Virus record (IMG/VR): IMGVR_UViG_3300014838_000019
Coordinates: 1-64,000 of that record
Strand: one strand, 5' to 3'
DNA length: 64,000 nt
Origin: a virus
Shown here: positions 1 through 14,878 of the stretch, one piece after another
How positions within the stretch are numbered: position 1 is the first letter of the stretch
How the letters are laid out: each line of letters opens with the position of its first letter
The notes under the pieces: model-generated
What the model was told of the DNA's origin: nothing
Seen by the model: only the letters and a program-made list of their open reading frames with translations
Databases searched by the model: none
Made by a program: the position numbers and the translations under genes

Positions 1-79
1 ACTGGCTTGACGCAAGTCGGAATGTTGGTTGGAAGTACAACGACCATCTCCATTGTGGGTTCGAATCCCATCACAGTAA
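1..79 (+). ncRNA. Partial tRNA-like RNA (5' end outside window)
   Basis: Clear T-arm GTGGG-TTCGAAT-CCCAT followed by an acceptor-like 3' strand (CACAGTA). Upstream hairpins do not form a canonical anticodon arm. Confidence 0.4.
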
Positions 80-112
80 GAATTGATAGCGTCCATGTAT
101 ATCTCTAATTAT

Positions 113-196
113 GCTGATGTGGTGTAATGGAAGCCACGCAAGTCTCAGAAGCTTGTGCCGAAAGGCGTGGGAGTTCGACTCTCCCCATCAGCACCA
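113..196 (+). tRNA. tRNA-Leu(CAG)
   Basis: Cloverleaf with anticodon arm CAAGT-CTCAGAA-GCTTG, long variable arm, GTTCGA T-loop, encoded CCA. Confidence 0.95.
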
Positions 197-221
197 AATT
201 TAGTCATGGTTCAGCATCTCT

Positions 222-299
222 GCCACGGTGATGCAATTTGGAAGACATTCCTGATTTAGACTCAGGATTTTAGGGGTTCAAGTCCCCTCTGTGGCACCA
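222..299 (+). tRNA. tRNA-Leu(TAG), short variable loop
   Basis: Anticodon arm CCTGA-TTTAGAC-TCAGG, 5-nt variable loop, A73 discriminator, CCA. Confidence 0.9.
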
Positions 300-303
300 A
301 TTT

Positions 304-594
304 ATGAATAAGTTTAAACAAATTTTTGATGATTCGTGGAAAAAATATAACTTACCTCCGAAAAAGGTATTCAAATTTACATGGGAATATTGTCCCTTAT
401 GCGATGCTATGTTTGTGCGCTGCCCTAAATGTGGAAATAATTGTTGTAATGCAACTTTTGGCCGAGTGACAAAACTCGGGTTTCCAACAAAACGGTGGGG
501 GAAAGAAACTAAAGAATGTGATGTGTGTAATTTGGCATATATGTATCAATCGTTGGCCGAACAAACAAATACGGTTCCTAAAAAACCGTTATGA
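304..594 (+). CDS. Hypothetical Cys-rich (zinc-finger) protein
   Basis: Multiple CxxC motifs (CPLC, CPKC, CDVC); starts right after the tRNA. Confidence 0.7.
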   Translation: MNKFKQIFDDSWKKYNLPPKKVFKFTWEYCPLCDAMFVRCPKCGNNCCNATFGRVTKLGFPTKRWGKETKECDVCNLAYMYQSLAEQTNTVPKKPL

Positions 595-884
595 ACATCA
601 ACTCAGTTAACATTGATTTAGACCAAGCGATTGGCGTAGTAACATTTTCAGATAACAGCGTCATACACATCAAAGGTTATTGTCAATGTGTAGCGTTTGG
701 TGAAATCGTATGGAATTATACATATATGAAAGACAAATTGCAACACGAGAAAGACTACGTTGAGTTCTTGGAGAAGCGACTGAAAAGTTCTCATTTTAAG
801 AAGAACGTAAGCCCCGAAGAATTTGAAAAGACCGAGAAAAAGCTTAAGAAAGCCCGACTTGTCTTGAGGGTGTTGGAAAAATAA
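591..884 (+). CDS. Hypothetical protein; C-terminus resembles the ValRS C-terminal tRNA-binding coiled coil
   Basis: ATGA overlap with the previous ORF. LEKRLKSSHFKKNVSPEEFEKTEKKL resembles the ValRS motif xxKLxNxxFxxKAPxEVVEKEREKL. Confidence 0.55.
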   Translation: MNINSVNIDLDQAIGVVTFSDNSVIHIKGYCQCVAFGEIVWNYTYMKDKLQHEKDYVEFLEKRLKSSHFKKNVSPEEFEKTEKKLKKARLVLRVLEK

Positions 885-950
885 TTTGACTTTCATCCGT
901 TATTGTAGTAGGCTACAAACAATCCGTTAAGCCTGTAGGCAGGCAAAAAT

Positions 951-1026
951 GTCGGTGTAGTGAAATGGTTATCACGGAAGCCTTTCAAGCTTTAATAGGC
1001 GAGTTCAATTCTCCCCACCGACACCA
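951..1026 (+). tRNA. tRNA-Glu(TTC)
   Basis: Anticodon arm GAAGC-CTTTCAA-GCTTT, CCA end. Confidence 0.93.
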
Positions 1027-1071
1027 TTATAATAGGACATTGTTTTTAGATATTTTCCCTTATTAATCAAT

Positions 1072-1437
1072 ATGAGAACATGGATAGAGCAAAAACCTAA
1101 AAGTCATAACTGTGGCCCAATTGCTGTCGCCGTTATCGCAGGTGTTACTTTAGAAGAAGCGATAAAAGCAATAGGTAAGAAGGGTTCCACTACAACTAAA
1201 CAATTGGTTTGTGGGTTACGTAAACTTGGATGGAATTGTCCTGACCGATGTAAGAAAATGCCGAAACCACCACTTGGGATTGCACAGTTGAAATCCCCCA
1301 CACGAAAATCGGGATGGCATTGGGTAGTTGTTGATGGAGACAAAATTTACGATGGATGTAACGGGAATCCCGATGGCACTGTCAGATGGATTAATGGAGA
1401 ACGAATCACGTCGTATCTTCCAGTGACAAAGATTTAA
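1072..1437 (+). CDS. C39-like cysteine peptidase domain protein
   Basis: Q-x5-CGP, HWVVV and IYD motifs in the C39 order (Q, C, H, D). Confidence 0.65.
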   Translation: MRTWIEQKPKSHNCGPIAVAVIAGVTLEEAIKAIGKKGSTTTKQLVCGLRKLGWNCPDRCKKMPKPPLGIAQLKSPTRKSGWHWVVVDGDKIYDGCNGNPDGTVRWINGERITSYLPVTKI

Positions 1438-1438
1438 T

Positions 1439-1516
1439 GCGTTAGTAATGGCTCCGGTTTCTACCCGGTACGTGCATAATTGGACAATGAGGGTTCGAGT
1501 CCCTCCTGACGCACCA
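1439..1516 (+). tRNA. Atypical D-armless tRNA-Arg(TCT)-like gene
   Basis: Acceptor GCGTTAG/CTGACGC+ACCA, T-arm GAGGG-TTCGAGT-CCCTC, anticodon arm CCGG-TTTCTAC-CCGG. Only ~8 nt where the D-arm should be and ~20 nt in the variable position. Confidence 0.7.
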
Positions 1517-1626
1517 CTTTTTATCAGAAAATTACTGACCACGGTATCAGTAAGTTTACGGTCGCCAAGAAGAAAGTCATTACTGATGACGAACCTACTT
1601 CCCGACGCAATCGTTAACCAACAAGT

Positions 1627-1702
1627 GGCTTCATGGTGAAATTGGACATCATGGGAATTTCCTAAATTTTCGTTCCGAGTTCAAATCTCGGTGGAGCCAC
1701 CA
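1627..1702 (+). tRNA. tRNA-Arg(CCT)
   Basis: Anticodon loop TTCCTAA, T-loop GTTCAAAT, CCA. Confidence 0.9.
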
Positions 1703-1706
1703 CTTT

Positions 1707-1958
1707 ATGAAATCATTTACAAAAGTTACAGAGACCACCTACACTCCAACATGGATTAAATCTCATTTCATCACTTACGACGAGCATTTTATTCGCATTC
1801 GCCAAAATTTTCCATACAAATGTGACCGCTGTGAAAAATGCGATCACAAATTTCTTCTTGGAGAAAGTATTGGCTTAGCTGCATTTGAGAACATTGGAAA
1901 CCGAGTGTTATGTGAATCCTGTGTCATAGAATTAGAATGTTCACATCAACCGGCATAG
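1707..1958 (+). CDS. Hypothetical zinc-finger protein
   Basis: CDRCEKC and LCESC motifs. Confidence 0.65.
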   Translation: MKSFTKVTETTYTPTWIKSHFITYDEHFIRIRQNFPYKCDRCEKCDHKFLLGESIGLAAFENIGNRVLCESCVIELECSHQPA

Positions 1959-2365
1959 TTCATTACGATGATGACGAAGGACATAGAGTAATTCTCCGAG
2001 TATCTCAAAGCTTGGCGGATTATTATAGGTCATTCATTCCCAAATGTGAAAGAGTCATCAAACCAAGGTGGGCGGCTCATGCAACGGTTATAAGACCGGG
2101 ATTTGAAGTTCCTCCCAAGATTAGTTATTGGGGAGACTACGAGGGAGAGGTAGTAGAATTTCTATATGATTCATATCAGTTGAATGGTTACGGCTATTAC
2201 TGGGTGAACATATGGTCAAAAAGATTGGAAGAAATTCGCACTGAATTGGGGTTGACCAATGTTAGCAAATATGCATTGCGTCCACCGGGATATGATAAGA
2301 CCTTTCATATCACCATCGGTAACTATATAGAAATACTTAGGAATGGGGAGTCTCCCGAAAAATAA
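1937..2365 (+). CDS. 2H phosphoesterase-family protein
   Basis: Two HxT motifs (HATV and HITI) about 75 aa apart. Confidence 0.7.
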   Translation: MFTSTGIVHYDDDEGHRVILRVSQSLADYYRSFIPKCERVIKPRWAAHATVIRPGFEVPPKISYWGDYEGEVVEFLYDSYQLNGYGYYWVNIWSKRLEEIRTELGLTNVSKYALRPPGYDKTFHITIGNYIEILRNGESPEK

Positions 2366-2378
2366 GTGCAGATTTCAT

Positions 2379-2410
2379 TTGACATTTCGTTAAGGTCTGT
2401 TATATTTATA
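2379..2410 (+). promoter_or_regulatory. Composite sigma70-like plus late promoter
   Basis: TTGACA-N16-TATATT with extended TG, overlapping TATTTATA, just before tRNA-Ser. Confidence 0.7.
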
Positions 2411-2418
2411 CTCACAAC

Positions 2419-2510
2419 GGTAGGATGGCAGAGCACGGCTTATCGCACCTGACTTGAAATCAGATGTGGCCTCAAAACCACCGGGGGTTCGAATCCCTCT
2501 CCTACCGCCA
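2419..2510 (+). tRNA. tRNA-Ser(TGA)
   Basis: Anticodon loop CTTGAAA, long variable arm, G73, CCA. Confidence 0.95.
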
Positions 2511-2516
2511 ATTTCT

Positions 2517-2590
2517 GCGGGGTTAATTAATCGGTATAATAATTCGCCTACACCGAATAGTGAGTGGTTCGACTCCACTACCTCGTACCA
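2517..2590 (+). tRNA. tRNA-Val(TAC) with non-canonical C33
   Basis: Anticodon arm ATTCG-CCTACAC-CGAAT, GTTCGA T-loop, ACCA. Confidence 0.85.
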
Positions 2591-2594
2591 TTTT

Positions 2595-2798
2595 ATGTCA
2601 GATGCAGTGACTCAAACGCCCGATTGGTTGGTTGACAGAATGGATAAAATATCCAAACTGCCACCGCCGACGTTGGAAGAAGTGAGGATGCAGTTTGATG
2701 GGTCGAGCAATCAAAAAGAATCTAAGGTTATCATTGTTACACCGACCATGAGTCGAGTGGTTAAATCCGCAGGCAAGAAATTGTGGCAAATTTTATAA
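2595..2798 (+). CDS. Hypothetical protein
   Basis: ATG directly after the tRNA 3' end; the longer computed ORF overlaps tRNAs. Confidence 0.55.
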   Translation: MSDAVTQTPDWLVDRMDKISKLPPPTLEEVRMQFDGSSNQKESKVIIVTPTMSRVVKSAGKKLWQIL

Positions 2799-2836
2799 TG
2801 TGACTTACGAAGATTTCAATATGAAATCTGTTCAAT

Positions 2837-2924
2837 GGAAGGTAAAACAGCCAGGGGTTGTGATTGATTGCTAATCAAATCGTGCCTTAATCGGCATGGG
2901 AATCGTGCTCTCTGCCTTCCGCCA
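2837..2924 (+). tRNA. tRNA-Ser(GCT) with atypical D- and T-loops
   Basis: Acceptor GGAAGGT/GCCTTCC+GCCA, anticodon loop TTGCTAA, long variable arm. T-loop region reads GAATCGTG rather than GTTCGA. Confidence 0.85.
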
Positions 2925-2935
2925 ATTTCGTAATT

Positions 2936-3001
2936 GCGAGTCAATCCTTTAACTCTATACAGTGATTTACGACTGTGAGTGGGGACTAAATAGACCGCCC
3001 A
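2936..3001 (+). ncRNA. Candidate structured RNA ending in CCA
   Basis: Closing stem GCG(A)GTC/GACCGC followed by CCA, with internal hairpin ACAGT...ACTGT. Confidence 0.3.
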
Positions 3002-3007
3002 ATTTAT

Positions 3008-4323
3008 CTTTGTAGGAGCAGAAAACCCATCTCCCTTTAGGGGATGGGATGAATGCGACTCATTGAAAATAATTTAACGTTTTCTGAAAGTGATTGATAT
3101 GTATCTTGTAGAATGTATAACCGAGCATACAAATATCGTTTGATTCCGAATAAAGAACAACAAGTTCTATTGTCCAAACACTTTGGACATTGTAGATTCG
3201 TATATAACCATTTCCTCCAAGTGAAGATTGACCATTACAAGAAAACCAAGAAAACAATCAATTGGCAGGATATGGCAACACAACTTCCAAAATTAAAGAA
3301 TGAATATGAATGGTTAAGTGAGGTTGGCTCACAATCTCTCCAGCAATCTATTCTCAATTTAGATAGAGCATATACATCTTTCTTTCGTAGTGGAACTGGA
3401 TTTCCCAAGTTTAAGTCGAGAAAGTATGCTCGCAAATCATTCATTGTTCCTATTACTAATAACAATATTAAATTGAACTATGAAACGAAACGATTGGTCA
3501 TACCAAAGTTTAGAAATGGTATTAAATGTATCTTTGATAGAGAAGCAGAAGGAACATTAAAGCAAGCAATCATATCACAAGACAGAGATGGAACGTATTA
3601 TGTCTCCATATTGGTTGAAGTGAATAATGATTTTCCAACTAAACCAGAACCAAAGAAGACTAAAGCGATTGGAATGGATTTTGGAGTAAAGACGTTCCTA
3701 ACATTGAATAATGGAGAAAAGATTGAAAATCCAAAAGTGTTGAAACAATCATCTGATAAATTGGGAAAACGCCAGCAAGAACTGGAGACATTAACCAAAG
3801 GTTCCACTGCTCACATTTCCAAGCAAGAGCAGATTACCAAACTCCATAGTAAAATAGCAAGACAGAGAAAAGATTTCTTGGATAAACTCTCACACAAACT
3901 AACCAATGATAACCAAATTGGAACGATTTGTATTGAGGACTTATCCATAAAAAACATGCAGGCAGACAACTACAAAGCAACCAACAATAGAATTGCTGAT
4001 TATGCTTGGGGTAAGTTTGTGAGTATGTTGCAGTATAAGAGTGATTGGTATGGGAAGAACTTCCGAAAGATTGGAAGATTTGACCCGTCCAGTAAAATGT
4101 GTAACGAATGTGGATATGTAAATCATTCTCTAACTTTAAGTGACAGAGAATGGAAGTGTCCAAGTTGTAGCACAAATCACGATAGAGGTGTGAATGCTGC
4201 CAAGAATATCTTGGACTTCTCATTTCCCAAAACAGAGTTTAATAAGGGTAGGAATTACCCTATAGAAACCTTAATGTTAGAGCAACGGGGAAACCCACTT
4301 GCTTTAGCGGGTGGGTAATTCAT
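3008..4323 (+). mobile_element. IS200/IS605-family tnpB-only element (IS1341-like)
   Basis: Subterminal hairpins at the left end (CCCATCTCCCTTTAGGGATGGG) and right end (CCCACTTGCTTTAGCGGGTGGG...TTCAT); TTTAT lies immediately 5'; no tnpA. Confidence 0.75.
3113..4318 (+). CDS. tnpB: TnpB RNA-guided endonuclease; RuvC-III Asp appears mutated to Gly
   Basis: N-terminal AYKYRLIP...FGHCRFVYN, RuvC-I GMDFG, RuvC-II IEDL, CxxC/CxxC zinc ribbon, HDRGVNAAKNI where HDRDxNAAxNI is expected. Confidence 0.93.
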   Translation: MYNRAYKYRLIPNKEQQVLLSKHFGHCRFVYNHFLQVKIDHYKKTKKTINWQDMATQLPKLKNEYEWLSEVGSQSLQQSILNLDRAYTSFFRSGTGFPKFKSRKYARKSFIVPITNNNIKLNYETKRLVIPKFRNGIKCIFDREAEGTLKQAIISQDRDGTYYVSILVEVNNDFPTKPEPKKTKAIGMDFGVKTFLTLNNGEKIENPKVLKQSSDKLGKRQQELETLTKGSTAHISKQEQITKLHSKIARQRKDFLDKLSHKLTNDNQIGTICIEDLSIKNMQADNYKATNNRIADYAWGKFVSMLQYKSDWYGKNFRKIGRFDPSSKMCNECGYVNHSLTLSDREWKCPSCSTNHDRGVNAAKNILDFSFPKTEFNKGRNYPIETLMLEQRGNPLALAGG

Positions 4324-4533
4324 ATGATATGTTTTCTTTGTTCGTGTGAAGAATTCAACGTGAAGATGGATGCTGTAGTTATTCAGGAATATAAAGGGAT
4401 GACCCTCGAAGTTCCAAGTCCAACTATGGTTTGCAAAAAGTGCGGGTGGGAAACCCTCGCCCGTGGTCAAGTGGATGCCTTATTTGTTGCTACTAAAAAG
4501 TGTTATGAAGAAAAAGTTTCCGAAGTTTCCTGA
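4324..4533 (+). CDS. Stand-alone YgiT/MqsA-type zinc-finger protein
   Basis: MxCxxC...YKGMTLEV...CKKCG followed by a helix, matching the MqsA N-terminal layout; no HTH domain. Confidence 0.7.
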   Translation: MICFLCSCEEFNVKMDAVVIQEYKGMTLEVPSPTMVCKKCGWETLARGQVDALFVATKKCYEEKVSEVS

Positions 4534-4846
4534 CTCTGTAATCATACTCAAACAGTATTTAACGTACATGGATTATGCAGCTACGGGTGAAGGTAGGACG
4601 TTTGAACTTAATATTTGTTTTGCCGAGACTCAAGCTGAGGCAAAAGCAAAACATTTGAAAAGATTTTATCCTACAGATGACGCAGCCCGAACATACTACG
4701 GTGTAGCTGTTGAGGTGGTTCCATTTAAAAGTAAAAGAGCCAAGGACATTATTACACATATATTCAAGTTGGGCGAGGGATTACACGAAGATTTACTTAA
4801 ATATGGAATTGATTTCTATTTCAAGTATTATGTTAATGCAAGTTAA
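4505..4846 (+). CDS. Hypothetical protein
   Basis: ORF from the in-frame ATG at 4505. Confidence 0.65.
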   Translation: MKKKFPKFPDSVIILKQYLTYMDYAATGEGRTFELNICFAETQAEAKAKHLKRFYPTDDAARTYYGVAVEVVPFKSKRAKDIITHIFKLGEGLHEDLLKYGIDFYFKYYVNAS

Positions 4847-4956
4847 TATATAAAATAAGGTCAGAGACATTCTTTAATGTTTTTTACTCGCAGCCTTATG
4901 GCTTACGAGATTGCTTCGGGGTCAGTGAGCAGGATTAATCACGGACTCAATAATTT

Positions 4957-5322
4957 ATGAAAACGAAAAATGCAGTTGTAGTATCAATCGTCGGCGCAAT
5001 AGTCGCCTTAACATTAACAGGTTGTGTCGCAACATGGACACCAGGAGGCGTAGTTGTTAGTGGACCACCACCATTGGTGATCGAACCTCCAATTGTAGAA
5101 GTCTCTCCAGTCGGAGTTGCAGTCGGTGTTCCAGATGAATATACTTGGGATGGATACGAATATGTGGGAATCGTAGGTGGGCAATATGTTTACCTTGGAC
5201 CCGTTGGCGTTTGGGGTGTCTGTGAACCTTGGCGTTTAGACCGCTTTCATGGATGGGAACGTGGTCATAGTGATTGGCGTAGCCATGCTTTTCATGGACG
5301 TGGAGGGCATGGTCGTCGTTAA
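4957..5322 (+). CDS. Putative lipoprotein
   Basis: Signal peptide with lipobox LTGC, Pro-rich segment, W/G-rich core, His/Gly/Arg tail. Confidence 0.75.
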   Translation: MKTKNAVVVSIVGAIVALTLTGCVATWTPGGVVVSGPPPLVIEPPIVEVSPVGVAVGVPDEYTWDGYEYVGIVGGQYVYLGPVGVWGVCEPWRLDRFHGWERGHSDWRSHAFHGRGGHGRR

Positions 5323-5327
5323 TTCCT

Positions 5328-5528
5328 ATGGAATACATCAACGAAGCAAATTCATTCCTCGACGCTCTGTATAAGAGCGTTGGGGCTTCTACCGCAGAGC
5401 AAAAGTATAATACACTAATTCTTAGGCTCGGGTACGAAAACGAGTTTATTGGGTTCAGTCATATTCCAACATGGCAACAAAAGCAGAGAATGATGGAATA
5501 TGAACTTTTGGATCGTCAAGGCGCATGA
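5328..5528 (+). CDS. Hypothetical protein
   Basis: Tightly packed ORF in an operon. Confidence 0.6.
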   Translation: MEYINEANSFLDALYKSVGASTAEQKYNTLILRLGYENEFIGFSHIPTWQQKQRMMEYELLDRQGA

Positions 5529-5833
5529 GAAAATGGCTCCAAACTATTGCTGCGTGTATTGCGTTGATACTTATAGTTGGATGTGTTCCAATACACGTCA
5601 ATGGTACAACGCATTATCTAGTGGTGGGCATTGGAGTAATAAGTGTAAATAACACTAATCAAGCCTTGGCACAAGTGACTAAAGCAACAATCCTTGGGGG
5701 ATATGCATCGGAACAGGGTGGAGGTATTGGATTTAGTTCGGTTAAGAAAGTAATGATCGCTACAAACGTCAATATGGTTATTGACGTGAGTAATGCCCCA
5801 TTCAAACCTTTAAATGTGGAAGTTCAAAAATGA
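5525..5833 (+). CDS. Putative lipoprotein
   Basis: Hydrophobic leader with IVGC lipobox; ATGA overlaps. Confidence 0.7.
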   Translation: MRKWLQTIAACIALILIVGCVPIHVNGTTHYLVVGIGVISVNNTNQALAQVTKATILGGYASEQGGGIGFSSVKKVMIATNVNMVIDVSNAPFKPLNVEVQK

Positions 5834-6252
5834 AAAATAAAATTATAAGCTTTATTAGCATGGGTCTGTTGGCAGTTTTGATGATGGGATGTAAAATTCA
5901 ACCAAATTACATTATTATATCATCCGCCACCACGGTTGGGTTTGATGTATCTGAATCAACCGTATCACAAACCCCGCAAGCCACCTTGGCATATAAACGA
6001 GGCGAGTTAGTGATTGTGCCGATTCCTACGAATGGACCTGTTCCCGATGTCATTATGGATTTCAGTTTCAAGACTTCAATATTTACTTCATCGGGTGGAA
6101 TTTATTCTCGAATTGCAACGGGTCCACATGCGACCACAAGTGCCGCTTCGGCATTGATGATGTCTAAGGATAAAAACGGAAACCTTTTTACGAATTTACC
6201 TAGTGTTTTGCCTTCGATCACCACTTTCCTAACTCCTAAATCAACAAAATAA
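5830..6252 (+). CDS. Putative lipoprotein
   Basis: Leader with MMGC lipobox. Confidence 0.7.
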   Translation: MKNKIISFISMGLLAVLMMGCKIQPNYIIISSATTVGFDVSESTVSQTPQATLAYKRGELVIVPIPTNGPVPDVIMDFSFKTSIFTSSGGIYSRIATGPHATTSAASALMMSKDKNGNLFTNLPSVLPSITTFLTPKSTK

Positions 6253-8744: not shown

Positions 8745-9137
8745 TTAGTCTCGTGGGGCACCGGCAGACAATCCAAGGTTGGTTGTTGTTCGATCTTGTG
8801 ATTTGTCAGGTAGTGTTTGAACCACATTGACACTAATTTGGTTATAGATGAATCCATCGGCGTTAACTGTTGCAGATTGATGCAAATCTATATTGACCCA
8901 TTTACGTGCGGTTTTTAGATTCATATCCGTATCTGCTCCAACCAAGAATACCGTTACTCCCGGCGTGGAAGATGCAGTTATGATTGCGGTCATTCCATCA
9001 ACTGATGGTTTGATTGTAGATTCTCCACTGATAACTTTCCAAGTAATCGTCTTTACACGACCTACTTTTCCAGAAAAACTCTGTGGATTCATCGTCAACG
9101 TAATCGTTTGATTTACTGTTAGTGTTAGATTTATCAT
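8745..9137 (-). CDS. Ig-like beta-sandwich hypothetical protein
   Basis: Alternating hydrophobic beta-strands, Thr/Val-rich. Confidence 0.6.
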   Translation of the reverse strand: MINLTLTVNQTITLTMNPQSFSGKVGRVKTITWKVISGESTIKPSVDGMTAIITASSTPGVTVFLVGADTDMNLKTARKWVNIDLHQSATVNADGFIYNQISVNVVQTLPDKSQDRTTTNLGLSAGAPRD

Positions 9138-9214
9138 ATAGTTTCCTATTTTATTTGAATTAAAATTGATATTCTCGTGAAATATTTCTATTTCACGAGA
9201 ACATTTGTTACGCT

Positions 9215-10180
9215 TTATCGGCGATTAGATTTATTAAACTGACGAGCCAAAGATGCCGAAGCATTTTGGACGACTGTATAAGTTGCAACTACAGTTCCAT
9301 TCAAGATAACATTCTCAACCACTTGGTTATTGAATGAACCCGTGAATCCACCAACGTAAGTTCCACTGATGGAGTTTCCGTTAATTGAACCCGTGAATGC
9401 TCCACTACCAATACCGTTCATGCTTGCGCTGACGACCGTTGCGGTCGAACTAGACAAGTCGGTGATTGTTCCAGTGTAAGTTCCAACATAGGAACCACTC
9501 AATGGACCTTGGGTAGAACCGCTATATGATCCACTGTATGATCCGCTATTTGAACCACTGATTGATCCACTGTATGATCCACTATTTGAACCGCTTGAAT
9601 TTGCTGATGCATATGCATCGAGGGCGTCAAGTTTAGCTGCTATGGTGCTGGCTCGTGCTGAGAGAGCATCAAGCAATGCTTGGTCACTTTGAGTGAATAC
9701 AGAACCCGAAGAGTTCTGAAGGGAGTTGATTGTAGTTACGAGGTAACTTACGTCACCTTGTAAATCTGTCACCGCAATGTCCATACGGTCATTGAATGCG
9801 TTCTGCGTTGTTGCGAAGTTTGATACTTGGCTCATAATTTTTTCCTCTGTTTGTTTCAAGTCGAGTTTACTCACGAATTCATGGGACTTGAACCATTCCA
9901 ATTCGTTTTTGGTTTGTTTTTCAAGATTTTCTAGTTCTTGAAAAATTCTTTGAAAGAGATGATATGTGGGATGATTATCCACATGATGTTCTCTTAATTC
10001 CGTAGGACTGATGCGTGTGACTACAGCATTACTAGCTGTGGGTGCATGAGGTACGGATTCTGTCGTTGTAAATTGTGTTTCTCCGGTGAATGTCGAAATT
10101 CTATTCACTGGGTCACTTAAAAGTATAGTTGGCGATACTGCCGACTGTGTAATGGGATAGTGACGATGAAAATAGTTCAT
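9215..10180 (-). CDS. Hypothetical protein with coiled coil and SGSY/SGSN repeats
   Basis: 321-aa ORF; central helical segment followed by (SGSx)n repeats. Confidence 0.7.
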   Translation of the reverse strand: MNYFHRHYPITQSAVSPTILLSDPVNRISTFTGETQFTTTESVPHAPTASNAVVTRISPTELREHHVDNHPTYHLFQRIFQELENLEKQTKNELEWFKSHEFVSKLDLKQTEEKIMSQVSNFATTQNAFNDRMDIAVTDLQGDVSYLVTTINSLQNSSGSVFTQSDQALLDALSARASTIAAKLDALDAYASANSSGSNSGSYSGSISGSNSGSYSGSYSGSTQGPLSGSYVGTYTGTITDLSSSTATVVSASMNGIGSGAFTGSINGNSISGTYVGGFTGSFNNQVVENVILNGTVVATYTVVQNASASLARQFNKSNRR

Positions 10181-10467
10181 ATTTTACCTTATGGTTATTC
10201 GTGGATGTAAATTCTACGCACGAGTTTATACGTGATTGTATAGTTAACGGGATATTGAACGGGAAGATAAACAAACTGTCATCCGATGGAATGGGTCTAT
10301 AGGACGGACACCTTTTTGAGGTATGAGAACTTGGAAGTTATTCCATCTCGACTTGCTTATACATATTGGAACGAATAATTAATATCGATTATATCGCAAT
10401 ATATATTTTATAATATTGCTGTAAATTTATCACTTGACTTCTTCTTGAGATGTGATATTATGATGGC

Positions 10468-10638
10468 ATGATTTGCGTCATTTGTAAAAAATGTAAAAAA
10501 GAATTGACACTCCCCGGCGGTTTATTATTTTCTCCTCCGATTGGGGGGCAAGTGAACAAATATCATTTGTGCCTCAGTTGTTACGTGTCTTTAATTCAAT
10601 GGCTTAACACTCCATTATCGAAAAATAAAAAGTTATGA
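10468..10638 (+). CDS. Small zinc-finger protein (not in ORF track)
   Basis: MICVICKKCKKEL...HLCLSCY; 56 aa, ATGA-coupled to the next gene, TTGACT promoter upstream. Confidence 0.6.
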   Translation: MICVICKKCKKELTLPGGLLFSPPIGGQVNKYHLCLSCYVSLIQWLNTPLSKNKKL

Positions 10639-11138
10639 TCCTAACAGACTACAGAATTGGCGTATTCAACTCCCATTGGTGGAAGGACGTTTGGTATAAT
10701 CAAGTAGCGTCTAGGTGGAACCCTCGTAATAAATGGCTTACCAAGAAGATTCCTCGCACTTGGATGGACAAAGATCATATTATTGAAATCTGTGTCCTAG
10801 AATCACTCAAACATTATATTGAGGGAGAAGAAGCTTTGGGCAAGGATATGTGTCATTTTCAATCGAGTCAGGATGACCCGTCATTTCCCGGATGGAAAAA
10901 GGAATCAGATCGAGAAGTGAAGAAGCAGTATGAATTAGTAACGATCAAGTTGGACTCTCTCGAAAAGCAACTGAAAATAGAATGGAATAATGTTCCGACT
11001 CGGAATTGGCGAGATGTTACTAAGCTTGACTACGAGCAGACTTATGGCAAGATTGATCGGTTGGAGAAAGAAATATACGATTTGCAGACTGAGATAATGG
11101 TTTGGGTCGTAAAGAATCGCAATATACTTTGGACATGA
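10635..11138 (+). CDS. Hypothetical phage protein
   Basis: 167 aa, Trp-rich N-terminus, coiled-coil C-terminus. Confidence 0.7.
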   Translation: MILTDYRIGVFNSHWWKDVWYNQVASRWNPRNKWLTKKIPRTWMDKDHIIEICVLESLKHYIEGEEALGKDMCHFQSSQDDPSFPGWKKESDREVKKQYELVTIKLDSLEKQLKIEWNNVPTRNWRDVTKLDYEQTYGKIDRLEKEIYDLQTEIMVWVVKNRNILWT

Positions 11139-11139
11139 T

Positions 11140-11517
11140 ATGAAAGTTACAATTCCCGCAAGAACAGAAGAAATCACACGATGTTATCATTCGTGCCCAT
11201 ATTTTGGGCTTGATGGTGGTCCTAGTTCCGTAATGTATTGTAAGCATCCATATTGGGATGACAAGGGAAGTTATGCTGGATTTATTATTTCTCACCCCGA
11301 ATGCGATGACGGATTCCCATCACTGTGCCCATTGTATAAAGAAAATGGAATGTCACCACCACCGAAAGAGCAACCGATAAAGGAAAAATCATATTTGACT
11401 GATGAAGAACGAGCCAAGTTTTCTGTCGGTGAGGCATTGAATGTTGAGTATCAGCGACGTTTCGATGAAGTGCTTCTCAATGCACTTTTGAAAATTCCAA
11501 TTGATAATAAATTATGA
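11140..11517 (+). CDS. Hypothetical Cys-containing protein
   Basis: CxxCPY...C...CPL pattern. Confidence 0.65.
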   Translation: MKVTIPARTEEITRCYHSCPYFGLDGGPSSVMYCKHPYWDDKGSYAGFIISHPECDDGFPSLCPLYKENGMSPPPKEQPIKEKSYLTDEERAKFSVGEALNVEYQRRFDEVLLNALLKIPIDNKL

Positions 11518-11972
11518 AAACAAATGCGACAATCGGTCTGTATGCGGGCAGTTTTAATCCGTTTCATGTTGGGCATCTATCAATCGTGAATCAAGCCAAG
11601 GAAGTATTTAATAAAGTAATTGTTGCACAAGGTATCAACCCCGACAAGAATTATGATGACAGTGCTCTTTTTCCCGAGTCGTATTTGGCATCTATAAATG
11701 TTGAGACCCGATCATACAACTGTTTGTTGACTACGCTCATAGAGAAAATAGAGCAGCAATATTCAGCTACCAATGTTGTCTTGGTTCGTGGGTTAAGGAA
11801 TGGTGCCGATTTGGAATACGAGCAGAACCTTATTGCGTTTTTACGAGGGTTCAAGCCCGGACTCAAGGTCACGGCGTTCTATTGCGACCCGATATATCGC
11901 CACGTCAGTTCGAGTGCTCTGCGGGGCATTCAGAAGTTTTCCGAACAGGAATACAGAAAATACGTGGTCTGA
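11514..11972 (+). CDS. coaD: Phosphopantetheine adenylyltransferase
   Basis: YAGSFNPFHVGH (HxGH), LVRGLRNGADLEYE and VSSS motifs. Confidence 0.85.
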   Translation: MKTNATIGLYAGSFNPFHVGHLSIVNQAKEVFNKVIVAQGINPDKNYDDSALFPESYLASINVETRSYNCLLTTLIEKIEQQYSATNVVLVRGLRNGADLEYEQNLIAFLRGFKPGLKVTAFYCDPIYRHVSSSALRGIQKFSEQEYRKYVV

Positions 11973-11992
11973 AATATAAATAATCATGGGAC

Positions 11993-12024
11993 TTGACATT
12001 TTCGACTTCCCGTGCTATATTTAT
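11993..12024 (+). promoter_or_regulatory. Composite sigma70-like plus late promoter
   Basis: TTGACA-N17-TATATT(TAT) with extended TG. Confidence 0.75.
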
Positions 12025-12035
12025 GCGTAAGATTT

Positions 12036-12168
12036 GAGATGCACACAGCGACAAAAAATCTATGAGCCGAAAGACTCACCATGAGTCATCCTCTCCCTCG
12101 CAAAAAAGAGAGGCGGAAGAATAACCGTGCTGTTTTTATAGTGCAGCGTAAAATTGGGCATCTCGCAA
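12036..12168 (+). ncRNA. Candidate multi-hairpin RNA closed by an acceptor-like stem
   Basis: GAGATGC/GCATCTC 7-bp stem + GCAA; internal hairpins TGAGCCGAAAGACTCA, CCTCTC..GAGAGG, GCTG..CAGC; directly after a promoter. Confidence 0.5.
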
Positions 12169-12228
12169 AATTTCCTATTCACCAATGGTGGAAAAGGTTG
12201 GGATAGACGTTCAGCGTCATCCTTTTAT

Positions 12229-12304
12229 GGGGCATTAGCTCAGTCAGTAGAGCGTCTGCTTTGCAAGCAGAAGGTGCCGGGAGCAAAGCCCGGATGCTCC
12301 ACCA
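12229..12304 (+). tRNA. tRNA-Ala(TGC) with atypical T-loop
   Basis: Anticodon loop TTTGCAA, G3:U70, T-arm CCGGG-AGCAAAG-CCCGG, CCA. Confidence 0.92.
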
Positions 12305-12351
12305 ATCTAAATATTTCGATTCGTTTCCGTTTCTCTCCACTATTTATTGGT

Positions 12352-13143
12352 ATGAAGATGATACCAATCACTTGCCACAAATGTTCTAATATTGTTGACC
12401 GGCCAAAATCCGAGGTTGACCGACAAATTAGAAATGGGCGGAAATATTTTTTCTGCTCATTGTCTTGCTCCACATCGGCAACAAAAACCACAACTCGCAA
12501 TATAAAATCACGATGTCTATTTTGTCATAAAGAGTTTGATTCGACTACTCGTAAAAAAGCAAAAGTATGTTGTAGCAAAGAGTGTGCAATAAAATATTCT
12601 CAATCATTTGTGGACCCGGTAATTCACAAAAAATCTATTCAGCGGCCATCACATTATCCCCGAGTCGAGAATTTCGAGTGCGTTATATGTGGAACGACGT
12701 TTAATAAGAATATAAAATCTCACGTCGAAACATATCAGACCTGTTCGGATAAATGTTTTAGAACACTACTCCAAGTAAAGGCAAGAGCCAATCCAAATTG
12801 CGGCGGGGATACGAATTATCGAAGGTATAAATATAATGGGATATGGATGGACTCAAAATGGGAAATAGAATTAGCCAAATGGATGGATGCCAATAGTATA
12901 TCGTGGGAGAGGGACAATAAGAAACATCAATTCATATGGACGGATAAAGACGGAAATAAGCGGCGATATTATCCCGACTTTTACCTTCCATCTTATAATG
13001 TGTATTTAGACCCGAAGAACAAATATCTCATTAAAGTTGATGATTACAAAATAAATCAAGTCATTCGGGAAAATAAAATTTGTCTTGTTTGGGGTCTGTT
13101 AGAAAATGTGAAAAAAGAAGTTGACATTTTGCGGGGAGTCTGA
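12352..13143 (+). CDS. Putative homing endonuclease (zinc-finger repeats + PD-(D/E)XK domain)
   Basis: Repeated CxxC...FCSxxC units; C-terminal DSKWE...YYPDFYLP...LDPK. ATG at 12352 follows TATTTAT. Confidence 0.75.
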   Translation: MKMIPITCHKCSNIVDRPKSEVDRQIRNGRKYFFCSLSCSTSATKTTTRNIKSRCLFCHKEFDSTTRKKAKVCCSKECAIKYSQSFVDPVIHKKSIQRPSHYPRVENFECVICGTTFNKNIKSHVETYQTCSDKCFRTLLQVKARANPNCGGDTNYRRYKYNGIWMDSKWEIELAKWMDANSISWERDNKKHQFIWTDKDGNKRRYYPDFYLPSYNVYLDPKNKYLIKVDDYKINQVIRENKICLVWGLLENVKKEVDILRGV

Positions 13144-13152
13144 TATATTTAT
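13121..13152 (+). promoter_or_regulatory. Composite sigma70-like plus late promoter
   Basis: TTGACA-N17-TATATT(TAT) with extended TG. Confidence 0.75.
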
Positions 13153-13375
13153 GACCATAGCTCATCTACCAAGTAAGTGTAGAAGGAGTAACGGGTCCGT
13201 CAAGTGGCGAACCCATCAATTTGCCTATCGCCCATGTGGTGAAAAGGTATCTGAAGTCACTGCGAAGTGACCTCTGACAACTGCGGGAGTCGGCAGACAA
13301 TAAAATAAGACGGAACTCCAATACCTTATGGTATTGCGAATCAAACCGAGGGGCACGGTCTCTCGGTCAGTTTAT

Positions 13376-13453
13376 TGCGGGCTAGGCAGTTCTGGTGAAC
13401 TCCTTTGTCTCATAAGCAAATCTAGAAAAGTTCAATTCTTTTGCCCGCTACCA
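13376..13453 (+). tRNA. tRNA-Met(CAT), initiator-like 1:72 mismatch
   Basis: Anticodon loop CTCATAA, T1:T72 mismatch, CCA; lacks the three G:C anticodon-stem pairs. Confidence 0.85.
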
Positions 13454-13517
13454 ATTTTGCTCTTGTAAATGTCCCGATCCAAAGTCATAGACTTGAGAAG
13501 AAGGTATTGAGCATTAT

Positions 13518-13591
13518 GGGGTCGTCGTTCAACGGTAGGACTTGACTATGGCATAGTTAGGATAGGGGTTCGATTCCCCTCGGCTCCACCA
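13518..13591 (+). tRNA. tRNA-Ala(GGC)
   Basis: Anticodon loop ATGGCAT, G3:U70, GTTCGA T-loop, CCA. Confidence 0.93.
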
Positions 13592-13638
13592 AGTATTTGA
13601 CTGGAATAGTTTCAGTCATTAGAGAAATAAAACATAAC

Positions 13639-14202
13639 ATGAAGAAAACATTATCATTATTTGCAACCCTCATCCTTGCGGTAGGTCTATTCGCAGGATG
13701 TGCATCTCCAAACGGAGCATCATCCCTCACCCCCGCTCAAGTAGCAACCGTTGGTGTGGTTGTAACTCAAGCCGCCAATGTTGGTGCTGCATATGCAATT
13801 CAGCAAGACAAAACGAACGCCAAGTATTTTGTTCTTGCCGATGCCGCCATTGACACCTTGGTTGTAAGCAGCAATGCAAGTCCAACCGAACTTGAAAATG
13901 CTCTTGCTCCAATCGAAGGAAGCAATCAATTGGTTAATGTTGCCATCAGCGGAGCACTCGTCGCTTATGACCTCACATTGAGCCAATATTCAATCACGAA
14001 TGCCGCTGACGCCGATGCCATTATATGGCTTGGTGATATAGAAGTCGGATTCAAGGAAGCATTGGTCTCGACTGGTGCAACAGGATTGACAGTCGCCCAC
14101 ATTGATCCTCCTTATTACTTGCAGCACGTTGGAACAGGTATCGTAGTTAATACGAATGCTATCAAGTTTACAATCGAAGAAGCCAAGCCAGTGACAAAGT
14201 AA
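13639..14202 (+). CDS. Putative lipoprotein
   Basis: MKKTL...LFAGC lipobox; Ala-rich helical body. Confidence 0.75.
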   Translation: MKKTLSLFATLILAVGLFAGCASPNGASSLTPAQVATVGVVVTQAANVGAAYAIQQDKTNAKYFVLADAAIDTLVVSSNASPTELENALAPIEGSNQLVNVAISGALVAYDLTLSQYSITNAADADAIIWLGDIEVGFKEALVSTGATGLTVAHIDPPYYLQHVGTGIVVNTNAIKFTIEEAKPVTK

Positions 14203-14218
14203 ATTAACTTTAACGCAT

Positions 14219-14250
14219 ATCCCTCGCTTCGGCGAGGGATTTTTTTTTTT
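14219..14250 (+). terminator. Intrinsic terminator
   Basis: ATCCCTCGC-TTCG-GCGAGGGAT + T-tract. Confidence 0.9.
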
Positions 14251-14261
14251 GTAGAAAGTGT

Positions 14262-14293
14262 TTGACATTTGGAAAAGGTGTGGTATATTTATA
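14262..14293 (+). promoter_or_regulatory. Composite sigma70-like plus late promoter
   Basis: TTGACA-N16-TATATT(TATA) with extended TG. Confidence 0.75.
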
Positions 14294-14302
14294 TCTGACG
14301 AT

Positions 14303-14376
14303 TGGAGTTTAGTGTAGTGGTAGCACGACTCTCTCTGAAAGAGCAAGTGAAAGTTCGATTCTTTCAACTCCAGCCA
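14303..14376 (+). tRNA. tRNA-Gln(CTG)
   Basis: TGGAGTT acceptor, anticodon loop CTCTGAA, GCCA end. Confidence 0.92.
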
Positions 14377-14386
14377 ATTTTAGTTT

Positions 14387-14574
14387 TTGATGTAGCAGAC
14401 ATACCAAAATTCTATGTGCCCGTCATGTGGACATATGGGACGAACGTCAGCAACAAGTAGGTTCTTAAGTTTGAACCGAAGATGACGATGGGAGGTCACA
14501 ACCCAAAGAGTGACTTTGCGAAGACTGCGAGTAAGGTCTAGGTCAACTACGAACTGTCGTAAGGGCTACATCAA
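14387..14574 (+). ncRNA. Candidate ~185-nt multibranch RNA between two tRNAs
   Basis: Closing stem TTGATGTAGC/GCTACATCAA; internal stems CGTCA/TGACG, GGTTC/GAACC, GTCAC/GTGAC, TACGA/TCGTA; no ORF. Confidence 0.55.
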
Positions 14575-14579
14575 TTTTA

Positions 14580-14667
14580 GGCGAATTGCCGGAACGGTAA
14601 CGGGCCAGCTTGGAAAGCTGAGGCAAGTTAACTACTTGAGTGGGTTCGACTCCTACATTCGCCGCCA
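14580..14667 (+). tRNA. tRNA-Ser(GGA)
   Basis: Anticodon loop TTGGAAA, long variable arm, GCCA. Confidence 0.94.
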
Positions 14668-14787
14668 ATTTTAAATGCGACTGCAACTAGCGATGAAGGT
14701 TCGATTCCTTAGTAAAGTGGAACGCAAGTCAGGGGCATAATCTGATAGGGTTATGTCAGCATTACGATTATGGATATACAGTATCGA

Positions 14788-14878
14788 GGTGAGTTGGTAG
14801 AGATGGATTATTGCACCTGACTCGAAATCAGGAGTGGCCTCAAAACCACCGGGGGTTCGAATCCCTCACTTACCGCCA
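14788..14878 (+). tRNA. tRNA-Ser(CGA)
   Basis: Anticodon loop CTCGAAA; variable and T arms identical to tRNA-Ser(TGA). Confidence 0.94.

What the first reader, a model, noticed from the sequence alone, without database searches (positions are those of the whole stretch)
1..14878. Candidate self-contained phage RNA-processing system: divergent RNase P, elbow-deviant tRNAs and acceptor-capped ncRNAs
Seen: several RNAs next to the S-domain-remodelled RNase P RNA break the D/T-loop elbow rules. Examples are the D-armless Arg(TCT), Ser(GCT) with an aberrant T-loop and D-arm, and Ala(TGC) with T-loop AGCAAAG. Several non-tRNA RNAs keep only an acceptor-like stem with an NCCA-like end. Inference: an elbow-independent phage RNase P could release these from polycistronic transcripts when host RNase P cannot. 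That would give the phage a parallel pool of tRNAs and tRNA-capped RNAs, possibly evading host tRNA-targeting defences. The co-location is observed; the functional link is a hypothesis.
Basis: inference. Interest (0 to 1): 0.85.

Follow-up and report, generated by a model that had tools for sequence, protein, structure and literature searches.

The report
Phage mini RNase P among odd tRNAs
A large uncultured peat and freshwater phage carries, inside its tRNA gene island, a real and highly expressed cut-down RNase P ribozyme next to three conserved kinds of non-standard tRNA, but the evidence does not show that the ribozyme exists to serve those odd tRNAs.

Summary
The observation largely holds. 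Window 7788-8137 encodes a genuine RNase P RNA. It keeps the bacterial class-A catalytic domain: P1-P6, P15-P18, both pseudoknots and the CCA-binding GGU. The specificity domain is reduced to a stub plus a lineage-specific insert.

The RNA belongs to a family of at least 40 viral contigs. Covariation is strong (89% of cells paired against 34-46% for slid controls). Rfam RF00010 hits two relatives below its threshold. In peat metatranscriptomes it is the most abundant RNA of the region.

The three odd tRNAs are real and conserved:
- Ser(GCT) is an (8/4) tRNASer, a class already published for phages.
- Arg(TCT) belongs to a 15-member family with a rearranged D arm.
- Ala(TGC) carries a GNRA-like T loop, a form also seen in other phages.

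"Acceptor-capped, NCCA-ended" non-tRNA RNAs were not confirmed. Conserved stem-closed RNAs do exist.

The functional link is not supported. The mini ribozyme occurs in all relatives, while each odd tRNA is patchy. Non-canonical T loops also occur in a jumbo phage in which I found no such ribozyme.

New here: the ribozyme and a 194-nt RNA appear joined head to tail in RNA assemblies, so they may be circular.

This scan has already found the mini RNase P family on other DNA.

The parts
7741..7769 (+). Promoter-like site for the RNase P RNA unit: TTGACA, 17 nt, TACAGT with an upstream TG. It lies inside the 3' end of the preceding ORF.
   Evidence: consensus match only
7788..8137 (+). Phage mini RNase P RNA, 350 nt. 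P1 7790-7796/8128-8134. P2 7803-7808/8073-8078. P3 7810-7816/7821-7827 with a GAAA loop. P4 pseudoknot 7832-7840/8090-8097 with bulged U7834. P5 7841-7844/7972-7975. P6 pseudoknot 7846-7849/8001-8004. P7 7857-7859/7962-7964. P15 7979-7981/8026-8028. P16 7988-7991/8016-8019. P17 7994-7996/8005-8007. L15 GGU 8022-8024. Two P18-region hairpins 8032-8050 and 8051-8064. J18/2 8065-8072. Extra 3' hairpin 8102-8120.
   Evidence: helices and covariation; ends and abundance; RF00010 hits relatives
7862..7954 (+). Lineage-specific insert at the tip of the S-domain stub. It is absent or different in most relatives.
   Evidence: In one search a joint 7851->7955 skips 103 nt in RNA contigs of two runs (short sides), probably from related strains.
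8138..8282 (+). Structured spacer between the RNase P RNA and tRNA-Ala(CGC). It lies in the same transcription unit.
   Evidence: the X6 contig 7850-8244 runs through it
8283..8360 (+). tRNA-Ala(CGC), canonical, followed by an intrinsic terminator at 8372-8399.
1439..1516 (+). Atypical tRNA-Arg(UCU)-like gene. It has a 7-bp acceptor, UAAUGGCU, the anticodon arm, a GUGCAUAAUUGGA... segment, a canonical T arm and ACCA.
   Evidence: 30.9 bits; 86.9 bits with family model R2
2837..2924 (+). (8/4) tRNA-Ser(GCU). It has an 8-bp acceptor, a 4-bp T stem, T loop AUCGUGC, a long variable arm, G73 and CCA.
   Evidence: 89.2 bits with R1; missed by ARAGORN
12229..12304 (+). tRNA-Ala(UGC) with the G3:U70 pair, a GNRA-like T loop AGCAAAG and a GG-less D loop.
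113..14878 (+). Fifteen tRNA genes called by ARAGORN, of which 14 are canonical (Ala(TGC) is listed separately): Leu CAG 113-196, Leu TAG 222-299, Glu 951-1026, Arg CCT 1627-1702, Ser TGA 2419-2510, Val 2517-2590, Pro 6531-6607, Leu GAG 7376-7460, Ala CGC, Ala TGC, Met 13376-13453, Ala GGC 13518-13591, Gln 14303-14376, Ser GGA 14580-14667, Ser CGA 14788-14878. All have an encoded CCA, mostly followed by AUUU or AAUUU.
14384..14577 (+). Conserved 194-nt multi-helix RNA between tRNA-Gln and tRNA-Ser(GGA). Its 10-bp closing stem is 14387-14396/14565-14574. It is abundant and joined head to tail in RNA assemblies.
   Evidence: (36 predicted pairs, 19 with compensatory change)
12026..12228 (+). Promoter-driven structured 5' leader of tRNA-Ala(UGC) (promoter 11993-12021). 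It is conserved in L001, L003, L004 and L125.
13150..13375 (+). Promoter-driven structured 5' leader of tRNA-Met (promoter 13121-13149). It is conserved in L001, and partly in L003, L006 and L010.
   Evidence: (z -4.2)
14668..14787 (+). Conserved leader of tRNA-Ser(CGA) that contains a T-arm-like hairpin (GAAGG-UUCGAUU-CCUUA).
   Evidence: a joint 14876->14669 appears in one run at low depth

Best explanation
The first 15 kb is the tRNA/ncRNA island of a large phage with T4-like head genes. The record is 75.8 kb, estimated at about 21% of the genome. The phage occurs in peat, permafrost and freshwater samples.

The island contains a genuine, strongly expressed, phage-encoded miniature RNase P RNA derived from the bacterial class-A ribozyme. 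The catalytic domain is complete, including the P4 core with its bulged U, the A-rich junctions and the L15 GGU that pairs with a tRNA 3'-CCA. The elbow-reading S domain is replaced by a short conserved stub plus a variable insert.

Inferred: it acts as a general 5'-end maturase for all of the phage's own pre-tRNAs and their long structured leaders, canonical and non-canonical alike. It most likely works with the host RnpA protein, because no phage rnpA was found. Substrate binding would then rest on the acceptor stem, the leader and the CCA rather than on the elbow.

The three odd tRNAs are functional members of conserved non-canonical families that ride along in the same island. They are not the reason the ribozyme exists. 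Some neighbouring ncRNAs are released by processing at the flanking tRNAs, not by acceptor-like caps of their own.
For: The RNase P fold is supported by covariation. P2, P3 (outer 6 of 8 pairs) and P4 are 100% paired. P4 has 3 covarying pairs. The P6 pseudoknot is 88.9% paired and P15 is 96.3%.

The invariant columns are CR-I, CR-V and GGU. All helices form in the window copy.

The curated model RF00010 matches family member L028 at 62.5 bits (E 7e-17) and the LR756508 copy at 49 bits (E 8e-15).

The family is present in 59 held loci, about 40-45 distinct contigs, and in every syntenic relative with enough sequence.

Expression: the rnpB bin has depth 367, 72.8 and 24.8 in three RNA runs, against mostly under 10 nearby. 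The gene has its own promoter, and a terminator follows the downstream tRNA.

No RnpA was found in the record or in four genomes rated complete.

In the window's clade, 149 of 151 tRNAs have an encoded CCA.

The atypical tRNAs keep their helices with covariation. They carry only Ser or Arg anticodons, which argues for function.

Evidence for a loose link: and PMC5389517.
Against: No cleavage activity, partner protein or substrate has been shown.

The window copy itself gets no Rfam hit at all.

The S-domain stub is highly conserved (GGGAG ... CGYUAAUAC). It may therefore still contact the substrate or a protein in an unknown way.

LR756508 has a mini RNase P but few CCA-encoding tRNA genes, so dependence on an encoded CCA is not general.

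Absence of rnpA was judged from Pfam PF00825 only.

The mini-RNase-P-free status of the control phages rests on a CR-V pattern, an HMM run around their tRNAs, and RF00010.
Confidence: 0.6

Rival explanations
1. One reading: the elbow-blind mini RNase P is a dedicated enzyme for elbow-deviant tRNAs and acceptor-capped ncRNAs that host RNase P cannot process. This would give the phage a private pool of RNAs that may escape host defences.
For: The S domain is truly missing or remodelled. Three conserved non-canonical tRNA families lie within 6.5 kb of the gene. 8/4 Ser and Arg-like members were found almost only in loci that also hold the mini ribozyme. About 10% of ARAGORN-called tRNAs in the clade have non-TTCRA T loops.
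Against: The co-occurrence is confounded, because the loci were fetched through the ribozyme or its neighbour.

The ribozyme is universal in the clade, while each odd tRNA is patchy.

RsoM2USA, with no detectable mini ribozyme, has 5 of 33 non-canonical T loops, including two AUCGUUA.

8/4 tRNAs occur in bacteria, and 8/4 and 9/3 tRNAs were examined for translation in E. coli (PMC5389517).

The Arg-like family keeps a canonical T loop and a GG motif.

No NCCA-capped non-tRNA RNA was found.
Confidence: 0.15
2. The mini RNA is not mainly a tRNA maturase. It may be a decoy that captures host RnpA, or it may process non-tRNA phage RNAs such as leaders, mRNAs or the stem-closed ncRNAs.
For: It is very abundant relative to its neighbours. 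No phage RnpA was found. The elbow-reading domain is lost. Long structured leaders and ncRNAs surround it.
Against: All catalytic-core nucleotides and the CCA-binding GGU are invariant across distant members. A mere protein sponge would not need that. The gene always sits in tRNA islands.
Confidence: 0.12
3. The odd tRNAs are decaying pseudogenes, and the 'ncRNAs' are just spacers.
For: ARAGORN misses two of the three. Rfam scores Arg(TCT) at only 30.9 bits. The stretch 2933-2985 next to Ser(GCT) is not conserved.
Against: The 8/4 Ser family is 95.9% paired with 19 covarying pairs. The Arg-like family is 92.1% paired with 15 covarying pairs. Anticodons stay within one amino acid. The Ala form is shared with L012 and three other contigs. 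The ncRNA at 14384-14577 has 19 compensatory pairs and high RNA depth.
Confidence: 0.05

Closest known systems
Bacterial class-A RNase P RNA (E. coli M1 RNA / rnpB; Rfam RF00010)
   Same: It has P1-P6 and P15-P18, the P4 and P6 pseudoknots, CR-I, CR-IV and CR-V, the bulged U in P4, the L15 GGU and J18/2. RF00010 hits relatives at E 7e-17 and 8e-15.
   Different: P8-P14 and the CR-II/CR-III elbow-binding module are missing. CR-I has one A fewer (GAGGAAGUUCG). Length is 215-410 nt. Scores are below Rfam's gathering score, and the window copy is not detected at all. It is encoded by a phage with no rnpA of its own.
Type T RNase P RNA of Pyrobaculum and relatives (Rfam RF02357), and engineered C-domain-only or 'micro' P RNAs (from my own knowledge)
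   Same: These are natural or engineered RNase P RNAs that work without a specificity domain.
   Different: Those are archaeal RNAs with archaeal proteins, or laboratory constructs. The phage RNA is of bacterial class-A descent and keeps L15 and P15-P17. There is no Rfam hit to RF02357.
(8/4) tRNASer / allo-tRNA (Mukai et al. 2017, PMC5389517)
   Same: It has an 8-bp acceptor, a 4-bp T stem, a long variable arm, G73 and Ser anticodons, and it is found in phage tRNA clusters.
   Different: The D arm here is an ordinary 4-bp stem with a 7-9-nt GG loop, not the long stem and tetraloop described for allo-tRNAs. Many members have non-canonical T loops (AUCGUGC, GGCGGGA).
D-arm-lacking mitochondrial tRNAs (from my own knowledge)
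   Same: There is no hairpin between the acceptor and anticodon stems in the Arg-like family.
   Different: Total length is normal. The T arm is canonical. A D-loop-like AAUUGG segment follows the anticodon arm, and a covarying 3-bp pairing spans that arm. This is a rearrangement rather than a loss.
Circular archaeal ncRNAs, including circular RNase P RNA reported in Sulfolobus (from my own knowledge, not checked here)
   Same: A stable ncRNA whose ends meet at a closing stem and appear joined.
   Different: Here the evidence is only closed cycles in assemblies of bacterial-phage RNA. The joining enzyme is unknown.

Membership tests
Bacterial class-A RNase P RNA (RF00010) | The P4 pseudoknot formed by CR-I and CR-V, with a bulged U | tested here: met
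   Window pairs 7832-7840 with 8090-8097, U7834 bulged. In A2 all 8 pairs are 100% paired and 3 covary.
Bacterial class-A RNase P RNA (RF00010) | Catalytic-domain helices P1, P2, P3, P5, P15, P16/17 and the P6 pseudoknot | tested here: met
   P2 100%, P3 (outer 6 of 8 pairs) 100%, P5 94%, P6 89%, P15 96% of cells paired, all with changes on both sides.
Bacterial class-A RNase P RNA (RF00010) | The L15 GGU that pairs with the tRNA 3'-CCA | tested here: met
   GGT is invariant directly 3' of P16 in 22 and 18 sequences. In the window it is 8022-8024. The pairing itself is not testable here.
Bacterial class-A RNase P RNA (RF00010) | Specificity domain P7-P14 with CR-II/CR-III | tested here: not met
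   Only P7 plus a stub of about 35-45 nt remains in minimal members. The window has an unrelated insert.
Bacterial class-A RNase P RNA (RF00010) | Score at or above Rfam's gathering threshold (100 bits) | tested here: not met
   Window: no hit at E<=10. Relatives score 62.5 and 49 bits.
Bacterial class-A RNase P RNA (RF00010) | Cleaves pre-tRNA 5' leaders and works with RnpA | not testable with these tools
   No phage RnpA was found in the record or in 4 complete genomes. That leaves host RnpA, or no protein, as the partner.
(8/4) tRNASer | 8-bp acceptor stem plus 4-bp T stem (a 12-bp branch) | tested here: met
   acceptor 99.3% paired and the 8th pair covaries (AU 9, UA 8, GC 1). The T stem is 100% paired and all 4 pairs covary.
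(8/4) tRNASer | Long variable arm, G73 and a Ser anticodon | tested here: met
   the variable stem is 100% paired, 17 of 18 have G73, and the anticodons are GCU, GGA, CGA or UGA.
(8/4) allo-tRNA in the strict sense | tRNASec-like long D stem with a tetraloop | tested here: not met
   The D stem is 4 bp with a 7-9-nt loop. The feature is as described in PMC5389517.
Armless (D-arm-lacking) tRNA | No D-arm helix of any kind | tested here: inconclusive
   There is no local hairpin, but columns 10-13 pair with 45-47 across the anticodon arm in 91.7% of cells, and 2 of the 3 pairs covary.

The most novel reading that the evidence does not exclude
The island is a phage-private RNA maturation system. 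In this reading, a covalently circular, elbow-blind mini RNase P ribozyme (350 nt) and at least one further circular RNA (194 nt) are made by phage or host RNA ligases, and the mini enzyme is required for at least one class of the phage's non-canonical tRNAs.

Taken alone, I put the odds that the two RNAs are truly circular at about 0.4. Closed-cycle contigs of length circle + 30 were seen in two runs for each RNA. In the same runs the nearby linear mRNA ends in adaptor sequence instead.
Probability: 0.12. Interest if true: 0.9.

Novelty: new variant of a known kind. Interest (0 to 1): 0.66.

Why it matters
RNase P is taken to be a cellular housekeeping ribozyme whose bacterial form needs a specificity domain to read the tRNA elbow. 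A widespread, abundant, natural phage version that lacks that domain is a ready-made minimal ribozyme. It could be used to ask what the domain is for, and how far CCA pairing and the protein subunit can replace it.

It also shows that large phages take over one more step of translation. They carry this ribozyme alongside non-standard tRNAs that standard gene finders miss.

If the head-to-tail joints reflect real circles, this would be a circular RNase P RNA and a circular ncRNA in a DNA phage. That would point to an RNA-stabilising pathway in phage infection.

For annotation, neither Rfam nor ARAGORN sees the ribozyme, the 8/4 tRNASer or the Arg-like tRNA in this window.

Tried and rejected
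- **Rfam.** Scans of the whole window and of 7700-8290 alone gave no RNase P hit. RF00010 on the whole record gave nothing.
- **GenBank phages.** Megablast and blastn of the region and of the RNA against GenBank phages found no match.
- **Covariance model.** I used an HMM instead.
- **Bacterial genomes.** The scan with the CR-I 17-mer returned 120 rows, essentially chance matches. None passed the HMM. This says nothing about origin.
- **Encoded CCA idea, abandoned.** I considered that the mini ribozyme goes with genome-encoded CCA: 149 of 151 tRNAs in the clade against 6 of 32 in supposed controls. The 484-kb 'control' LR756508 then proved to carry a divergent mini ribozyme itself. The mini-ribozyme-free phages KVP40 and RsoM2USA also encode CCA.
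- **NCCA-capped non-tRNA RNAs.** The search found tRNAs, plus one match at 3098-3210 inside the TnpB-like gene.
- **Proteins in the own record.** RnpA, T4 Rnl1, Rnl2-type ligase and RtcB were not found in the 75.8-kb record. It is only about 21% of the genome, so this is uninformative. The Rnl1 family rang in no control genome.
- **Nearest cultured relatives.** Microcystis phage Mel-JY01 and Flavobacterium phage immuto gave no member by pattern plus HMM. They have only 1 and 3 tRNAs.
- **RNA contig coverage.** Parts of the stretch without cover in the RNA contigs are not evidence of silence.
- **Literature.** Searches found no paper describing a phage-encoded RNase P RNA. The library is incomplete, so this is not proof of novelty.

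Full report
**Context**

The window is the first 64 kb of a 75.8-kb IMG/VR virus record that CheckV rates at 21% complete. Its portal and large terminase are T4-like. The nearest isolates by portal protein are Microcystis phage Mel-JY01 and Flavobacterium phage immuto, at about 50% identity. Near-identical DNA occurs in permafrost, peat and freshwater metagenomes and in peat metatranscriptomes.

**What lies in 1-14878**

ARAGORN tRNA genes, all on the + strand. Rfam adds a weak tRNA hit at 1439-1513. Every tRNA gene ends in an encoded CCA, mostly followed by AUUU or AAUUU. Strong sigma-70-like promoters (TTGACA, 16-17 nt, TATATT) stand in front of several non-coding units. Two clear intrinsic terminators lie at 8372-8399 and 14219-14240.

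**The RNase P RNA is real**

Rfam gives no RNase P match anywhere in the window, even at E<=10 on 7700-8290 alone. RF00010 finds nothing in the whole record. Another first-reader note placed the candidate at 7741-8135.

Reading the sequence shows the class-A catalytic-domain layout. CR-I reads GAGGAAGUUCGCCGC and CR-V reads AUAACGGCGGCU. Their complementary parts form P4 with a bulged U. Coordinates for every helix are listed under parts.

The test is comparative:
- Thirteen of 15 syntenic relatives, fetched through a neighbouring protein, have a homologous RNA at the same place. For a fourteenth relative the gene lies elsewhere on its contig.
- A motif scan of IMG/VR, filtered for CR-V and P4 complementarity, gave 40 distinct members with CR-I to CR-V spans of 168-382 nt.
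- An HMM finds the family in 59 held loci.
- On an 18-member alignment, my hand-drawn structure is 89.0% paired. Slid controls give 34-46%. Fifty of 61 pairs change on both sides, and no shuffle out of 500 does as well.
- The structure comprises P1, P2, P3, P4, P5, P6, P7, a stub hairpin, P15, P16, P17 and two P18-region hairpins.
- The invariant columns are CR-I, CR-V, the GCUG at the P2/P3 junction, and GGU on the 3' side of the P15/P16 internal loop. That GGU occupies the place of E. coli G292-G293-U294, the CCA binder. This mapping comes from my own knowledge of M1 RNA.
- The curated model RF00010 recognises two members. L028, which is in my alignment, scores 62.5 bits with E 7e-17. A divergent copy in the published 484-kb uncultured phage LR756508 scores 49 bits with E 8e-15. 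My HMM found that copy at the same place.

**The specificity domain**

In most members only P7, a conserved internal loop (GGGAG on one strand, CGYUAAUAC on the other) and a short hairpin remain, about 35-45 nt in all. P8-P14 and CR-II/CR-III are absent. The tip of that hairpin is a hot spot for unrelated insertions. The window has about 85-93 nt there (7862-7954). L003, L011, L002, L009, L026, L080 and L032 have other inserts. So 'remodelled S domain' is correct. Loss of the usual elbow contact is a fair inference, but it has not been shown.

**Expression and ends**

Four peat metatranscriptome runs, held as Logan contigs, were laid on 1-15500.
- The bin holding the ribozyme has the highest depth in three of the four runs: 367, 72.8 and 24.8, against mostly under 10 elsewhere. 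The fourth run has no cover there.
- Two runs give closed-cycle contigs of 380 and 374 nt. These equal 350 and 344 nt plus 30 (k-1), and they join 8137 to 7788 and 8132 to 7789. The ends therefore sit at the base of P1.
- The conserved 194-nt RNA at 14384-14577 gives the same picture in two runs. The contigs are 224 nt, at depths of 244 and 52.5.
- In the same runs the neighbouring mRNA contigs (13609-14194 and 13794-14204) end in Illumina adaptor sequence rather than in a joint. That is what a linear RNA should give.

This points to circular RNAs. Template switching by reverse transcriptase on abundant linear RNAs with exactly these ends remains possible. Contigs cannot decide between the two. 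One run also has a contig that continues past 8137 to 8244.

Other agents of this scan have reported similar joints for other phage ncRNAs. That could mean a real phenomenon or a shared artefact.

**Partner proteins**

No RnpA (PF00825) is encoded in the record. None is encoded in four genomes rated 100% complete that carry the ribozyme: 158, 167, 168 and 365 kb. Rnl2-type ligase domains occur in 4 of 5 such records. In one record the ligase gene lies about 1.1 kb from the ribozyme gene. RtcB occurs in one record.

**The three odd tRNAs**

1. *Ser(GCT), 2837-2924.* All 18 family members found in relatives have an 8-bp acceptor stem. The 8/4 cloverleaf is 95.9% paired. The eighth acceptor pair and all four T-stem pairs covary. 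Anticodons are GCU, GGA, CGA and UGA, 17 of 18 have G73, and the variable arm is long. A covariance model separates these (50-98 bits) from canonical tRNASer (30-40 bits). Mukai et al. described (8/4) tRNASer in phage tRNA clusters and in bacteria, and they examined 8/4 and 9/3 tRNAs for translation in E. coli (PMC5389517). This part is therefore already known. The frequent non-canonical T loops (AUCGUGC, GGCGGGA) may not be.

2. *Arg(TCT), 1439-1516.* Fifteen members score 65-95 bits with the family model, while ordinary tRNAs score 41 or less. All carry Arg anticodons (UCU, CCU or UCG). They have a canonical T arm and an NCCA end. A D-loop-like AUAAUUGGA follows the anticodon arm. The helices are 92.1% paired. 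That includes a 3-bp pairing that spans the anticodon arm, with 2 covarying pairs. This looks like a rearranged D arm and a three-way junction. L010 and L012 have a normal Arg(TCT) instead.

3. *Ala(TGC), 12229-12304.* G3:U70 is intact. The T stem CCGGG/CCCGG is capped by AGCAAAG, which has a GNRA-like core. The D loop has no GG. L012 shares this form, and nine relatives are canonical. The same T arm occurs in Ala(CGC), Ala(UGC) and Gly(GCC) genes of five other viral contigs. One of these is a complete 168-kb genome that also carries the ribozyme.

**Non-tRNA RNAs**

Several intergenic segments are conserved in relatives. The 194-nt RNA has 36 predicted pairs, 19 of them with compensatory changes. 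The units at 12026-12228 and 13150-13375 are promoter-driven structured leaders of tRNA-Ala(UGC) and tRNA-Met.

None of these RNAs ends in NCCA. A scan for NCCA with a trailer and a perfect 7-bp closing stem found tRNAs, apart from one match at 3098-3210 inside the TnpB-like gene. The 'CCA' at 7948 lies inside the ribozyme's own insert.

The ends implied by the joints leave 2-3 unpaired U on both sides of the closing stems. The 3' end of the 194-nt RNA lies 2 nt before the 5' end of the next tRNA. This fits release by processing of the flanking tRNAs. It does not fit RNase P cutting at an acceptor-like cap.

**Is the ribozyme linked to the odd RNAs?**

- In the window's clade, 149 of 151 ARAGORN tRNAs carry CCA and 16 (10.6%) have non-TTCRA T loops.
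- I first took Mel-JY01, immuto and LR756508 as controls without the ribozyme. LR756508 then proved to carry a divergent copy. It has few encoded CCA, so dependence on encoded CCA is not general.
- In Ralstonia phage RsoM2USA and Vibrio phage KVP40, a CR-V pattern, the HMM and RF00010 all find no member.
- RsoM2USA has 5 of 33 non-canonical T loops, including two AUCGUUA. KVP40 has 1 of 30.
- Deviant T loops are therefore not peculiar to phages that carry the mini ribozyme.
- Within the clade the ribozyme is constant, whereas each odd tRNA comes and goes.

The co-location is real. It is explained most simply by all of these genes belonging to the tRNA island.

**Verdict**

The proposed dependency between the ribozyme and the atypical RNAs is unsupported and somewhat weakened. 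I found no paper on phage-encoded RNase P RNA in the searchable library. The scan has met this family repeatedly on other DNA, so it is not new to the scan.

Noticed in passing
window 7788-8137 and 14384-14577: Closed-cycle metatranscriptome contigs (length = RNA + 30) join the 3' end to the 5' end of the mini RNase P RNA in two runs, and of the 194-nt RNA in two runs. The nearby mRNA contigs end in adaptor sequence instead. These may be circular RNAs.
   Followed up: partly
window 12274-12290; also L259, L265, L267, L268, L101: An identical T arm, GCCGGG-AGCRAAG-CCCGG with a GNRA-like loop, recurs in Ala(UGC), Ala(CGC) and Gly(GCC) tRNA genes of unrelated viral contigs. Several of these have GG-less D loops (AGUYAGUA).
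   Followed up: partly
L136 / L278 (record of L015, about 124.1-125.7 kb): In this relative an Rnl2-type RNA ligase domain gene lies about 1.1 kb upstream of the mini RNase P gene, on the same strand.
   Followed up: no
L080 3020-3403 and L044 5523-5903: Two phage contigs that carry the ribozyme also encode a full tmRNA (Rfam 161.7 and 123.6 bits) within a few kb of it.
   Followed up: no
window 3113-4318: A 401-aa ORF whose N-terminus reads like an IS200/IS605 TnpB/OrfB. One RNA run has a contig that skips 3193-4025 and has 27 other letters in between, probably from a strain variant. I did not search it against protein families.
   Followed up: no
window 9215-10180 (- strand) and 13639-14202 (+ strand): After the ribozyme, these two protein genes have the highest RNA contig depths in the stretch (up to 180 and 70). 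The second starts with a lipoprotein-like signal sequence.
   Followed up: no
window 1-80: The contig starts inside what looks like the 3' part of a tRNA-like gene. A canonical T arm GUGGG-UUCGAAU-CCCAU is present, but no CCA follows.
   Followed up: no
T loops in relatives (L003, L006, L011, L013, L014 and others): Many deviant T loops swap positions 54 and 58 (A54 with U58, as in AGCGUAA, AGCAUUA, AUCGUGC). That could keep the reverse-Hoogsteen pair in flipped form. Others change only U55 to G.
   Followed up: no
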